A stretch of 64,000 nucleotides of DNA from NCBI GenBank assembly GCA_965644265.1, contig OZ286473.1:37820001-37884000 (forward strand). The letters are read 5' to 3'. Positions 26,401 to 29,400 of the stretch are shown here, piece after piece. The DNA is from Glycera tridactyla (taxonomy: Eukaryota). The position numbers were made by a program. Each line of letters opens with the position of its first letter. Positions within the stretch are counted from its first letter, which is position 1.

Positions 26401-29400
26401 CAGTGAAAAATCTTACAAGAAGAGTGAGCATATTCAAGCGGTAAATAGTAACTGTGACCTGACTGTCCGGGAGGATGGAAAGTATAACTACACATGTAAA
26501 CACTGCCAGGTCGTCTCGGTAGCTTTTGAGGACTTCGAGCTGCATTTAGAGAAATCACATCCCGATTCATTCAAATGTGTGAATTGCTGCGAAAATTATA
26601 GCCGCTATGAACACCTCCAGCATCACGAGTGCACCGTGAAGGTCAGCGATCTATATGTTTGCAAGGTGTGTGGCCGTGCACATGAAAGTGCACAGGCACT
26701 AAAGAAACATATGCAGGGTCACGAGAGACAGTTTCAGTGTCAGAAATGCATGAAGAAACTTGTTCGTTCTGAGAATCTTAAAAAGCATGTATGTGTGGAT
26801 CCATCACAAGAACCGCAATCAGTTAGTTGCTCAATGTGTGGGGCAGAATTCTCGACCAAGAAATATCTTCTGCGCCATATGAACTCACACACGGGACAGT
26901 TTAGCTGCGAGCATTGTGGAAAATCATATGGTCGTAAAGAATCCATGTTACAGCACATGAGATTGTGTTATCCCGAATCAATGGCCAACTATTTCCCATG
27001 TGGTCTTTGTTCGAAGGTTTTTGCCAAAGAAGTCTCATTGATGAACCATATGAAAGTTCATGAAGAGCGGTTCAAATGTGAGGTATGTTTCCAAGTGTTT
27101 ACTAGTAAGTTCAATCTCGATAAACATGATCCATGCCCGGAAACTGCCGTACCATTTGAGCAAACGGCAACTGGGGTGAAGTGTATGGATTGCGGGAAGG
27201 AGTACCCGAGCTTGAAAAACTTGCGTCGTCATCAGAGTATCCACACGGATAAGAATAAATGTCATATATGTGGCAAGACTTTCTCTCGGAAGGAAGAGTG
27301 TGAAGCACACATGCTGATATGCGAGGCGAAAAAAGGTATCGAAGCTGATGGCTCATTGAAATGCAGGGCATGCGACGAAGTATTCACTGATCCCACCCTC
27401 TTTCATCGGCACATGACGGCCCATAATAGTGTGTACCGTTGCAACAATTGTACAAAGAGCTTTTTACGGCAGCATAACTACCAGCAGCATCTGAAAGAGG
27501 GCAATTGTAAGAAATGGGATGGGAAATCAACACTGCCCTGTGACGAATGTGGTAAACATTTTGCCACACCTAACCTCCTCGATCGTCACATGATCATTCA
27601 CGGTGAGCCTCGTTTCGAATGTAAGGCATGCAATCGCAAGTTCGTTCGTAGTGATCATTTCAATGAGCATATCTGTCTGAAAGGCGACAACCAGAGGGTT
27701 TCCTACAACTATTTGAAGTATCAGAAAAAGAAAGATCCAGTCATCTGCGATGTCTGTGGTAAAATATTTGTGTCGTCCAGCAATTTGAATAAGCATAAAT
27801 TAACTCATGGGGAGAAGAATGAGGAATGTCCCATCTGTGGCAAGCGCTTTCACATTAAAACAGGGCTGAAAGAGCACCTGAAGTATGTCCACACTGACGA
27901 AAACAATGTAGAATGTCCGCACTGTGGAGTACGTATGAAATGCCGAAACTCATTGTTCGGTCATATAAAGCAGTTTCACAGTGGAGAAAATACGCAGTTT
28001 TTCCAATGTGACCAGTGCGACAAAGAGTTTCGGCAGAAAGGAAATCTGATCAAGCATTTACTCACCCATTCAGATGAAAAAACCTACCTATGTAAAGTGA
28101 CAGGATGCATGCGTAAATTCAAGTTTTCCGAGCAACTCAAGAAGCATATGAATTGGCACGAGCATGGTGCACGATTTTCGTGCGAGCAGTGTGATAAGCG
28201 TTTCATCATGAAACATGAACTAGACAAACATAATCGGCAGAATCACATGGGAATCGTCTACCAGTGTCGATTGTGCAACTGTGACTTCAAACATCAATCC
28301 ACTCTGAAGCGCCACCTAGAGAGAAGGCATGCGGACGCTCCCGATTGGAAAGAGAACACAAACGAGTTTGTTCGACTGTGTGAACAGCAGCGGCCACAGA
28401 CAATAGCAACCTCCGAGGGTGGCGAACAGTTTGTCATATATGGCGAGAACCAGTCCTATTTCATTGTTGAAAACGGAGCAGTCGAGGGTGAGGTCGGCCA
28501 GTATCTGACGACGTCGGATGCGCAGGAACAGATGCAGTACATCATTCTGCCTGGGGATAATATAACGCCGGGTGAACTTCAGTACGACGCTGCAGGAAAT
28601 CTGGTAGAGGTGGACGTGAAACTACCCGACAATTCTGCTGGCATTTTTGGTGCTTTCGAACAATCACAGCAGCCCGGTGCGACTGTATTCATACGAAATC
28701 CAGATGGATCCCTTGAGCCTGTTCATCTTGACACTAGTGACGGGCAGGCGACTATTGAGGTAGGAGGCGCCGTTGACAGTAGTATTGTAGATATGGGGCT
28801 TACAACACAGGACTTGGAAGGACAACTCATCGGGCAACCGCAGGTAGCAAAGATGGCGTTAGCCATCACAATAGACGGCCAGCAGCAAACTGTCCATCAC
28901 ATACCTGACACTCAGATACCAGTAGCAGTTCCTCACATCACGGATTCTCTGCCGGTAGATGTGAATGTTATCGCTGACCCAGCAGCTCCCTCAACCGATG
29001 TACAGATTGAGGAATTGGATGTCGTTACCACATACACTGAATAATTGTAATTTGTGCAAGTCTTCAGGAAATTTCCTGAATCAAGGAAACTTGTTACGAA
29101 ATTGAAAATCCAAAAGTTTCTGGATTCAGGCTGAAAGTTTCGAATCTCGATCTTTTGGAAATATAGGGGTTAGTTTCAGGAATTTTTGTCAGGTTTCAGG
29201 AAATTCTATTTCATTGCACTTACATCACTGAACTTTGGTTTGAATTTCATCCCATACTCAGTAAGAACTTTATCTGATTTACAGATTGTGCAGTTTATGT
29301 GGACATTGCATGCACTCGGTAATTGTAGTTTGAATGTTACCACAGATGTGGTTGAGCATATAATTGATGTTCAGATTGAGGATTTAAATGTGGTTACCAC

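What the first reader, a model, noticed from the sequence alone, without database searches (positions are those of the whole stretch)
26495..27676. Seven consecutive C2H2 + C2HC zinc-finger doublets in strict alternation
Seen: last ligands alternate without exception over 14 fingers: HLEKSH/HEC, HMQGH/HVC, HMNSH/HMRLC, HMKVH/HDPC, HQSIH/HMLIC, HMTAH/HLKEGNC, HMIIH/HIC. Linkers within pairs are short (5-6 aa, e.g. TGQFS, EERFK) and those between pairs are longer (~9-17 aa). Seven ordinary C2H2 fingers follow. Known: C2HC fingers in FOG/U-shaped bind proteins rather than DNA. Inference: a duplicated two-finger module forming a repeated structural or protein/RNA-binding unit, distinct from the DNA-reading C-terminal array. 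I do not recall this architecture in PRDM proteins, but did not search.
Basis: partly seen in the sequence, partly recalled or inferred. Interest (0 to 1): 0.65.

Follow-up and report, generated by a model that had tools for sequence, protein, structure and literature searches.

The report
Alternating zinc-finger pairs in PRDM15-like gene
The 14 alternating zinc fingers are real and sit in an invertebrate PRDM10/15 transcription-factor gene, where this two-finger unit is an old, conserved family trait that seems not to have been described and whose function is still untested.

Summary
Window 26495-27676 (+) encodes 14 classical-type fingers whose last zinc ligand alternates His/Cys without exception. 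Linkers are 5-6 aa inside pairs and 9-15 aa between pairs, and seven ordinary C2H2 fingers follow.

The fingers lie in a 1684-aa open frame. Upstream PR-domain exons show that this frame is the large exon of a PRDM10/15-type gene.

The alternation is not special to this window. Named orthologues from 12 mollusc genera and the brachiopod Lingula, including "PRDM15" of Patella, carry 4-7 such pairs followed by a six- to seven-finger C2H2 array. Across 11 aligned species the second-finger positions end in Cys in 64 of 65 cases. A fish PRDM15 has His there, apart from one H-x-C finger.

Second fingers cluster apart from first fingers in a tree, which fits duplication of a two-finger unit. AlphaFold2 gives two ββα fingers, the second with a truncated helix, and the pair is predicted no more rigid than an ordinary pair.

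Function is open. The residues look DNA-reading, but the literature links such Cys-ended fingers to protein binding. I found no paper that describes the pattern.

The parts
16255..16311 (+). Candidate first coding exon piece with the N-terminal zinc knuckle (C-x2-C...H...C-P-E). Boundaries are approximate. A (CA)n run and the N run 16505-16654 lie just downstream and were left alone.
   Evidence: Open frame seen. It resembles the start of the orthologue consensus of alignment A1. This is by eye only.
19119..19292 (+). PR/SET domain exon a
   Evidence: tblastn of Lingula P0101, Saccostrea P0073 and Patella P0119 gives 41-47% identity. The sequence shows an AG acceptor and a GT donor.
21387..21639 (+). 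PR/SET domain exon b
   Evidence: tblastn gives 42-55% identity to the same three orthologues. It matches solved PR domains of PRDM4, 12, 11, 10 and 9 at E 4e-9 to 3e-8. The acceptor is CAG and the donor is GTAAGT.
24058..29044 (+). Large last coding exon, part of the 1684-aa open frame 23990-29044. It holds a lone finger, a long low-complexity stretch, the 14 paired fingers, the 7-finger array and a C-terminal tail. The stop codon is at 29042-29044.
   Evidence: The acceptor TTTCAG|GAATG is seen. Pfam zf-C2H2 scores 184.9 bits.
26495..26632 (+). Pair 1: finger 1 (C2H2, H-x4-H), 5 aa, finger 2 (C2HC, H-x1-C). This is the most degenerate pair.
   Evidence: No Pfam cut-off is reached. Counterparts in few species.
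26660..26794 (+). Pair 2: finger 3 (C2H2), 5 aa, finger 4 (C2HC, H-x1-C)
   Evidence: All 8 ligands and Arg at helix -1 of finger 4 are invariant in 18 of 18 rows of A1. The AlphaFold2 model shows two ββα fingers.
26828..26968 (+). Pair 3: finger 5 (C2H2), 5 aa, finger 6 (C2HC, H-x3-C). This is the best conserved pair. It is followed by a conserved Pro, Glu in most rows.
26999..27136 (+). Pair 4: finger 7 (C2H2), 5 aa, finger 8 (C2HC, H-x2-C)
   Evidence: Finger 7 ends in Cys in 5 of 11 species.
27182..27322 (+). Pair 5: finger 9 (C2H2), 5 aa, finger 10 (C2HC, H-x3-C)
27362..27508 (+). Pair 6: finger 11 (C2H2), 5 aa, finger 12 (C2HC, H-x5-C)
27539..27676 (+). Pair 7: finger 13 (C2H2), 6 aa, finger 14 (C2HC, H-x1-C)
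27746..28330 (+). C-terminal array of seven ordinary C2H2 fingers (15-21) with linkers of 6-9 aa. It is the most conserved part of the protein.
   Evidence: It is 54% identical to P0062, 45% to Saccostrea PRDM15-like and 34% to fish PRDM15. Helix contact positions are highly conserved.

Best explanation
The region is the central zinc-finger domain of an invertebrate orthologue of the PRDM10/15 transcription-factor subfamily. It consists of seven copies of an ancient two-finger module. Each module is a classical C2H2 finger, a shortened 5-aa linker (a canonical linker is 7 aa by the same count; recalled, no call) and a classical-fold finger whose fourth zinc ligand is Cys, mostly only two residues after the His (H-x-C).

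Shown here: the pattern itself, its position-by-position conservation across molluscs, a brachiopod and this organism, the separate clustering of second fingers, and a predicted ββα fold for both fingers with the second helix cut short.

Inferred: the module arose once and was duplicated before these lineages split. The early Cys ends the helix and breaks the regular finger-to-finger register, so each pair acts as a separate unit joined to the next by a flexible spacer.

Most likely function (inferred, about even odds): the pairs are auxiliary nucleic-acid-binding units. The second finger would put its Arg(-1)/Glu-Asp(+2) helix into DNA, adding affinity or spaced half-site contacts. The highly conserved seven-finger C-terminal array would do the main sequence reading. 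In vertebrate PRDM15 the same positions appear to have reverted to ordinary C2H2 fingers.
For: Gene identity: PR-domain exons lie upstream. The best named relatives are 'PR domain zinc finger protein 15' of Patella, 'PRDM15-like' of Saccostrea and PRDM15 of the fish Mugil.

Family trait: 13 of 13 named mollusc and brachiopod orthologues show 4-7 His-Cys pairs followed by a six- to seven-finger C2H2 array. Of 80 proteins of 600 aa or more chosen only by PR-domain similarity, 22 have 3 or more pairs. All 13 of those 80 with the seven-finger signature have 2-6 pairs.

Ligands by position in 11 aligned species: Cys in 64 of 65 cases at even positions F4-F14 and His in 58 of 65 at odd positions F3-F13.

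Module features in 64 pairs from 11 species: the linker is 5 aa in 49, H-x-C occurs in 39 and H-x3-C in 21.

Duplication of a unit: the finger tree splits into 48 rows (40 even, 7 C-terminal, 1 odd) and 75 rows (39 odd, 34 C-terminal, 2 even). The 'even' label needs 6 changes against a shuffled mean of 35.4, and 0 of 500 shuffles are as low. Within the window alone, the even-even BLOSUM mean is 13.6 and the odd-even mean is 3.0, with permutation 372 of 20000.

Fold: the AlphaFold2 model of pair 2 has mean pLDDT 77.4, two ββα units and a second helix of only residues 41-46.

DNA-like features: second fingers have Arg at -1 in 39 of 64 and Glu/Asp at +2 in 42 of 64. Mean net charge is +1.9 for second fingers and +1.5 for first fingers. 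Mouse PRDM10's finger array binds a specific DNA motif (PMC7368010, passages).

Reversion in vertebrates: in a MAFFT alignment, the fish fingers ending HISYKH, HIHVH and HLVIH align with the window's HVC, HMLIC and HIC fingers. One orthologue (P0062) has His-x4-His where the others have His-x3-Cys.
Against: Helix contact positions are much less conserved in the pairs than in the C-terminal array. Pairwise identity at -1, +2, +3 and +6 is 0.53, 0.39, 0.30, 0.19 for second fingers and 0.22, 0.16, 0.36, 0.43 for first fingers, against 0.48, 0.54, 0.75, 0.64 for the array. That argues against conserved base reading.

A 2023 paper states that all classical-fold CCHC fingers described so far act in protein-protein contacts (PMC10465944, passages). 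[quoted passage not shown]

The model of pair 2 fits DNA-bound tandem fingers poorly: TM 0.39-0.49 and rmsd 6.5-8.4 A. The ordinary control pair fits better: TM 0.46-0.60, rmsd mostly 3-5 A. Both models have low pTM (0.44), so orientations are uncertain.

Zinc binding by H-x-C is not demonstrated, and pLDDT falls to 58-72 at the end of the second finger.

The direction of change (Cys first or His first) is not resolved. Only one vertebrate sequence and no named arthropod or non-vertebrate deuterostome orthologue was examined.

Placement of the PR exon among PRDM subfamilies by solved structures alone is ambiguous: PRDM4, 12, 11 and 10 score alike.
Confidence: 0.5

Rival explanations
1. The pairs are protein-docking modules. 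The Cys-ended second fingers recruit partner proteins, as in FOG, BCL11A or NEMO, while only the C-terminal array touches DNA.
For: The literature states that all described classical-fold CCHC fingers act in protein-protein contacts (PMC10465944). FOG1 is a PR-domain protein with C2HC fingers that bind GATA1 and TACC3, and it is reported not to bind DNA (PMC4146578). Ligand type and spacing are conserved far more strictly than the helix 'reading' positions. The non-canonical 5-aa linker and the poor fit of the model to DNA-bound tandem fingers point the same way.
Against: No partner is known or predicted. The Arg(-1)/acidic(+2) pair retained in most second fingers has no obvious role in protein docking. 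The apparently homologous fingers of fish PRDM15 are ordinary C2H2. The fingers are net basic.
Confidence: 0.25
2. The Cys/His choice at the fourth ligand is functionally neutral. The pairs are ordinary DNA-binding C2H2-type fingers, and the alternation is a frozen accident of duplicating one H+C unit.
For: Cys and His interchange at the same position in evolution: P0062 finger 6, the fish PRDM15 fingers, and finger 7, which ends in Cys in 5 of 11 species. The ZNF750 paper concludes that the fold tolerates either last ligand. AlphaFold2 predicts ordinary ββα units.
Against: Cys in 64 of 65 second-finger cases across species as distant as bivalves and a brachiopod is far more constrained than neutrality predicts. 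The H-x-C spacing shortens the helix by about a turn, which is not a like-for-like swap.
Confidence: 0.15
3. The pairs are packed, metal- or redox-sensitive regulatory units like the Zap1 finger pair, or they are RNA-binding fingers.
For: Pfam Zap1_zf1 matches first fingers in 6 of 18 orthologue rows, best E 4e-12. The double-stranded-RNA finger model zf-C2H2_jaz matches 10 of 18 rows, and pairs 3 and 7 of the window lie above its cut-off. More Cys ligands would make the sites easier to oxidise (general chemistry).
Against: In the window itself Zap1_zf1 reaches only 19.3 bits against a cut-off of 27.2. pTM of the pair equals that of an ordinary pair. Foldseek found no packed-pair analogue, only tandem classical fingers. 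The jaz and zf-met models overlap generic C2H2 fingers.
Confidence: 0.07

Closest known systems
Vertebrate PRDM15 and PRDM10 (the PRDM10/15 subfamily of Vervoort et al. 2016, PMC4760075)
   Same: Both have an N-terminal zinc knuckle and PR domain, a central set of finger pairs separated by long spacers, and a C-terminal run of seven fingers. The window is 27% identical to fish PRDM15 over 747 aligned columns and 34% in the last array.
   Different: In the one fish PRDM15 examined, the second finger of each pair ends in His and the linker is 6 aa. Only one H-x-C finger remains. Mouse PRDM10 is described as having 'ten C2H2 zinc fingers'. I could not inspect a named PRDM10 sequence.
FOG1/ZFPM1 and Drosophila U-shaped
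   Same: They are PR-domain proteins that mix C2H2 and classical-fold C2HC fingers (PMC4146578). One orthologue row weakly matched Pfam FOG1-like_PR at E 3e-4.
   Different: The fingers in FOG are not arranged as strictly alternating short-linker pairs. The FOG paper reports no DNA binding, and its C2HC fingers bind GATA factors. No sequence relationship of the fingers was tested here.
Classical-fold CCHC fingers (NEMO, ZNF750, BCL11A, MOZ)
   Same: The C-x2-C-x12-H-...-C pattern on a ββα fold, as listed in PMC10465944.
   Different: ZNF750 uses H-x5-C, with ligands H43 and C49 given in the paper. Here 39 of 64 second fingers are H-x1-C. That paper lists H-x1-C only as an unproven possibility for fingers annotated 'degenerate': PRDM6 finger 1 and ZFAT finger 2. 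Known examples are single fingers, not a repeated pair.
Widely spaced two-finger DNA modules (SALL3/4 clusters, Tramtrack, MBP-1/HIVEP double finger)
   Same: Two classical fingers act as one unit with long spacers between units. These were among the best structural matches to the models: 7y3l, 7y3i, 2drp and 1bbo.
   Different: Both of their fingers are C2H2 with a canonical-length linker (recalled). The pair model fits them only at TM 0.43-0.47 with rmsd about 8 A.
Plant IDD/BIRD factors (two C2H2 then two C2HC fingers)
   Same: They mix C2H2 and C2HC classical fingers in one DNA-binding domain. Pfam models of their third and fourth C2HC fingers give weak hits to pairs 4, 5 and 7 at 16-19 bits, below the cut-offs.
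   Different: The order is H,H,C,C rather than alternating, and the family is plant-specific. That their C2HC fingers take part in DNA and SHR-SCR binding is recalled. I saw only search listings.

Membership tests
PRDM10/15 subfamily of PR-domain zinc-finger proteins | PR/SET-like domain near the N-terminus | tested here: met
   Exons at 19119-19292 and 21387-21639 match orthologue PR domains at 41-55% identity and solved PR domains at E down to 4e-9. Pfam PRDM2_PR is found in 12 of 18 rows of A1.
PRDM10/15 subfamily of PR-domain zinc-finger proteins | Closest named relatives are PRDM15 or PRDM10 rather than other PRDM subfamilies | tested here: inconclusive
   The named hits are Patella 'PRDM15', Saccostrea 'PRDM15-like' and Mugil PRDM15, and the finger architecture is collinear with fish PRDM15. 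The PR exon alone scores alike against PRDM4, 12, 11 and 10 structures. No tree with other subfamilies was built.
PRDM10/15 subfamily of PR-domain zinc-finger proteins | Multiple C2H2 fingers after the PR domain | tested here: met
   Pfam zf-C2H2 scores 184.9 bits with 10 stretches. The script finds 22 finger motifs.
Classical ββα (C2H2-type) zinc finger | C-x2-4-C-x12-H-x3-5-H spacing with a conserved aromatic and Leu | tested here: met
   Met for the seven first fingers and fingers 15-21. Phe at the core position occurs in 56 of 64 first and 53 of 64 second fingers.
Classical ββα (C2H2-type) zinc finger | ββα fold | tested here: met
   The AlphaFold2 model of pair 2 has two hairpin-plus-helix units and mean pLDDT 77.4. 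This is a prediction only. Pairs 2-7 reach the Pfam zf-C2H2 cut-off and pair 1 does not.
Classical-fold CCHC finger (FOG, NEMO, ZNF750 type) | Cys as fourth ligand on a C-x2-C-x12-H framework | tested here: met
   Met in 7 of 7 second fingers in the window and in 64 of 65 second-finger cases in 11 species.
Classical-fold CCHC finger (FOG, NEMO, ZNF750 type) | His-to-Cys spacing of about 3-5 residues, as in characterised examples | tested here: not met
   The window has x1, x1, x3, x2, x3, x5, x1. In the family, x1 occurs in 39 of 64 and x3 in 21 of 64. The range for known examples is partly recalled. ZNF750's x5 comes from PMC10465944.
Classical-fold CCHC finger (FOG, NEMO, ZNF750 type) | Binds zinc and mediates protein-protein contacts | not testable with these tools
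   This needs metal titration, a structure and interaction assays.
Zap1-type packed finger pair | Match to Zap1_zf1 and two fingers packed into one rigid unit | tested here: not met
   The window's best Zap1_zf1 score is 19.3 bits against a cut-off of 27.2. pTM is 0.44, the same as the ordinary control pair. Foldseek gave no packed-pair hit.
Canonical tandem DNA-tracking C2H2 array | 7-aa TGEKP-type linkers between successive fingers | tested here: not met
   Linkers inside pairs are 5-6 aa and those between pairs are 9-15 aa. The C-terminal seven fingers have 6-9 aa.

The most novel reading that the evidence does not exclude
The C2H2, 5-aa linker, C2HC (H-x-C) pair is a distinct and so far undescribed kind of two-finger module with its own geometry and job. 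That job could be a spaced DNA clamp or a docking unit for protein or RNA. On this reading the module was ancestral to bilaterian PRDM10/15 and was erased in vertebrates by Cys-to-His reversion. It would also be the first natural family to show that the 'degenerate' H-x-C ending is a working zinc site.
Probability: 0.25. Interest if true: 0.65.

Novelty: new variant of a known kind. Interest (0 to 1): 0.45.

Why it matters
Classical fingers that end in Cys are few and mostly studied one at a time. A recent paper states that all characterised cases bind proteins, and it lists H-x-C endings only as unproven candidates among 'degenerate' fingers. This family offers six or seven such fingers per protein. 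Each sits at a fixed position next to a normal C2H2 partner and is conserved across at least molluscs, a brachiopod and this organism. That makes it a natural test set for three questions:
- Is H-x-C a real zinc site?
- What does a truncated recognition helix do?
- Do Cys-ended classical fingers bind DNA?

It also suggests that vertebrate PRDM15 descends from a protein built from such pairs. That could guide dissection of which of its many fingers read DNA.

Tried and rejected
- **Recent duplication:** Tandem Repeats Finder found no DNA repeat in 26000-28600, so this is rejected.
- **Word-index search with the pair region:** it returned mostly generic poly-finger proteins. Only P0004 and P0005 were true orthologues.
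- **PDB sequence search with the pair region:** it gave only generic C2H2 proteins (ZNF568, PRDM9, CTCF).
- **ESM Atlas look-up:** it gave only generic finger clusters (ZNF423, ZNF142, HINFP, hunchback), with recognition below the stated level. No lead came from it.
- **Pfam on each pair:** no family models the pair. The ZNF451 two-finger models, BIRD-IDD C2HC models, LYAR, UBZ and BED all lie below or barely at their cut-offs.
- **Rigid packing:** pTM is 0.44 for pair 2 and 0.44 for the control pair, so there is no support.
- **Subfamily placement by PDB PR domains:** this does not discriminate.
- **Candidate arthropod, annelid and priapulid orthologues (Eretmocerus, Palaemon, Paralvinella, Priapulus):** their finger patterns and 28-36% matches look generic, so they were not used.
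Full report
**What is there**

Window 26495-27676 on the + strand translates without a stop into 14 zinc-finger motifs. A script that looks for C-x2-4-C-x12-H and then the next His or Cys gave the last ligands H,C,H,C,H,C,H,C,H,C,H,C,H,C. The His-to-last-ligand spacings are 4,1,3,1,3,3,3,2,3,3,3,5,3,1. Linkers inside pairs are 5,5,5,5,5,5,6 aa and those between pairs are 9,11,10,15,13,10 aa. After 23 more residues come seven ordinary C2H2 fingers with linkers of 6-9 aa.

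**Gene context**

The fingers lie in one open frame of 1684 codons, 23990-29044. A good splice acceptor sits at about 24058. Upstream on the same strand are two PR/SET-domain exons at 19119-19292 and 21387-21639. They match the PR domains of Lingula, Saccostrea and Patella proteins at 41-55% identity and solved PR domains of PRDM4, 12, 11, 10 and 9. Further upstream there is a likely zinc-knuckle exon near 16255.

I searched the model exon by exon. I did not build or search a joined spliced protein, so the full-length protein was never compared as a whole.

I do not take the contig for human. Its best relatives are brachiopod and mollusc proteins at 42-56% identity, and the one vertebrate relative seen is at 27-34%. 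The organism itself stays unidentified.

**Is it chance, and is it special to this window?**

In 87 unrelated poly-finger proteins retrieved by the first two searches, the same rule called Cys as last ligand in 185 of 2106 fingers, and 34 of those were H-x-C. No protein had more than two short-linker His-Cys pairs. Seven in a row is therefore not chance.

It is also not unique to this window. Five unnamed orthologues (P0004, P0005, P0062, P0064, P0065) and named proteins show 4-7 such pairs followed by a six- to seven-finger C2H2 array. The named proteins come from Saccostrea, Ostrea, Mytilus, Mizuhopecten, Solemya, Dreissena, Gigantopelta, Mercenaria, Mya, Haliotis, Patella (named PRDM15) and the brachiopod Lingula.

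To avoid choosing relatives by their fingers, I searched 1.84 billion representatives with the PR exon alone. That gave 773 hits at E up to 1e-3, of which the best 150 were listed. Of the 80 listed proteins of at least 600 aa:
- 25 had no pair, 17 had one, 16 had two and 22 had three or more.
- All 13 with the seven-finger C-terminal signature had 2-6 pairs.

**Position-by-position conservation**

I aligned the finger regions of 11 species with MAFFT. Patella, Haliotis and Gigantopelta were dropped because my anchor pattern did not find their array. The pairs turn out to be positional orthologues.
- The last ligand is Cys in 11/11, 10/11, 11/11, 11/11, 11/11 and 10/10 species at fingers 4, 6, 8, 10, 12 and 14, or 64 of 65 in all.
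- It is His in 11/11, 11/11, 6/11, 10/10, 11/11 and 9/11 at fingers 3, 5, 7, 9, 11 and 13.

Pair 1 of the window has few counterparts. In alignment A1, all eight ligands of pair 2 and the Arg at helix position -1 of finger 4 are invariant in 18 of 18 rows.

**Odd versus even**

Within the window, even fingers resemble each other (mean BLOSUM score 13.6). Odd fingers do not (0.8), and the odd-even mean is 3.0. A parity permutation reached the observed contrast in 372 of 20000 trials.

I then built a FastTree tree of 123 fingers from seven species, using 21 columns and leaving out the last ligand. I asked for eight species, but the rows of P0062 were overwritten by those of P0064 through a label clash. 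The tree splits into:
- 48 rows: 40 even, 7 C-terminal and 1 odd.
- 75 rows: 39 odd, 34 C-terminal and 2 even.

The 'even' label needs 6 changes against 35.4 in shuffles, and 0 of 500 shuffles are as low. With so few columns most forks are unresolved, and orthologous copies inflate the shuffle test. There is no DNA repeat left. The simplest history is ancient duplication of one two-finger unit.

**Anatomy of the unit**

In 64 pairs from 11 species:
- The linker is 5 aa in 49, 6 aa in 9 and 4 aa in 6.
- The second finger is H-x-C in 39 and H-x3-C in 21.
- Second fingers have Arg at helix -1 in 39, Lys at +1 in 27, Glu/Asp at +2 in 42 and Leu at +4 in 41.
- First fingers have Tyr at +3 in 28 and Arg at +6 in 27.

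**Predicted structure**

AlphaFold2 on pair 2, with 18 aligned rows, gave mean pLDDT 77.4 and pTM 0.44. The model has two ββα units, and the second helix spans only residues 41-46. An ordinary neighbouring pair, fingers 16-17, run with the same rows, gave pLDDT 82.5, pTM 0.44 and 12-residue helices. The pair is therefore not predicted to be more rigid than any two adjacent fingers.

Foldseek against the PDB returned only classical tandem fingers for both models, with no match at E up to 1e-3.
- The pair fits them at TM 0.39-0.49 with rmsd 6.5-8.4 A.
- The control fits DNA-bound CTCF, Zif268, Aart and ZBTB24 at TM 0.50-0.60 with rmsd about 3-5 A.

This hints that the 5-aa linker does not allow the usual DNA-wrapping geometry. 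At pTM 0.44 the hint is weak.

**Function**

For DNA binding:
- The Arg(-1)/acidic(+2) signature of second fingers.
- Net positive charge, +1.9 for second and +1.5 for first fingers, against +2.6 for the C-terminal array.
- The finger array of mouse PRDM10 binds a specific motif (PMC7368010, passages read).
- In a fish PRDM15, the fingers that align with the window's H-x-C and H-x3-C fingers are ordinary C2H2. This rests on one fish and one alignment.

Against DNA binding:
- The contact positions -1, +2, +3 and +6 are much less conserved in the pairs than in the C-terminal array.
- A 2023 NMR paper on ZNF750 states that all classical-fold CCHC fingers described so far (NEMO, FOG, MOZ, U-shaped, BCL11A) work in protein-protein contacts (PMC10465944, passages read).
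- FOG1 is itself a PR-domain protein with C2HC and C2H2 fingers, and it is reported not to bind DNA (PMC4146578, passages read).

I therefore give about even odds to auxiliary DNA-binding units and about one in four to protein-docking units. The rest goes to a neutral ligand swap or a sensor or RNA role.

**What is known and what is new**

The gene is an ordinary member of the PRDM10/15 subfamily. That subfamily is bilaterian and duplicated at the base of vertebrates (PMC4760075, passages read). The orthologue sequences are public and carry automatic names.

I found no description of the alternation.
- 'PRDM15' with 'C2HC' gave 2 papers, neither on this subject.
- 'CCHC' with PRDM15 or PRDM10 gave one paper holding all three terms, seen only in the listing.
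- 'C2HC', 'C2H2', 'alternating' and 'zinc finger pair' gave nothing relevant.
- A mollusc PRDM survey only counts fingers: 20 in Mulinia PRDM15 (PMC10451705, passages).
- The ZNF750 paper lists H-x-C sites only as candidates, in PRDM6 finger 1 and ZFAT finger 2.

Domain diagrams in the supplements of PMC4760075 and PMC7368010 may show finger types that I could not see. The library also lacks most subscription journals.

**Left unchecked**
- Any named vertebrate PRDM10.
- Arthropod and non-vertebrate deuterostome orthologues, and so whether Cys or His came first.
- A subfamily tree of the PR domain.
- Zinc binding and any binding partner.

Noticed in passing
window 9622-10608 (-): An open frame of 328 codons contains a DHHC motif in a Cys-rich stretch and hydrophobic segments. 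It looks like a zDHHC palmitoyltransferase exon. This is by eye from the translation.
   Followed up: no
window 45561-46424 (-): An open frame of 287 codons has several hydrophobic helices and an N-x-x-x-x-F-F-I-Y-like motif near the end. It looks like a rhodopsin-type receptor. This is by eye.
   Followed up: no
window 12722-13430; 37222-37706; 62920-63505; 30392-30690: Four tandem arrays were found. The first is G-rich with a 16-19-bp unit and about 38 copies. The second is a (TGG)n run of about 163 copies. The third has a 45-bp unit in 13 copies at 95% identity. The fourth has a 95-bp unit in 3 copies, each starting with a poly-G run. The first two explain the GC-skew spikes of 0.27 and 0.30.
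   Followed up: partly
window 16505-16654 and 37992-38168: Two runs of N, 150 and 177 bases long. The first lies just after the likely first coding exon and a (CA)n run, inside what would be intron 1.
   Followed up: no
window 22987-23289 (+): An open frame carries a lone C2H2-like motif between the PR exons and the large exon. tblastn with four orthologues did not match it. It may be a lineage-specific exon or may not be coding.
   Followed up: partly
orthologues, finger 7 position (window 26999-27061): In 5 of 11 aligned species, all bivalves (Saccostrea, Mytilus, Solemya, Dreissena, Mercenaria), the first finger of pair 4 also ends in Cys, giving a Cys-Cys pair. In Dreissena and Mercenaria the first finger of the last pair does the same.
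   Followed up: partly
representative hits, P0097-P0245 (e.g. P0146, P0148, P0211, P0224): Of the 80 PR-domain-selected proteins of 600 aa or more, 16 have exactly two His-Cys pairs. Many of these are only 700-900 aa, with 7-8 aa between the pairs. They may be another PRDM subfamily that uses the same unit. They are unnamed and were not examined further.
   Followed up: no
window 26969-26980 and orthologues: Directly after the last Cys of finger 6 comes a conserved x-Pro-Glu/Asp. Several molluscs have a second Cys next to the ligand Cys (C-C-P-E). This may be an extra cap or an alternative ligand.
   Followed up: no
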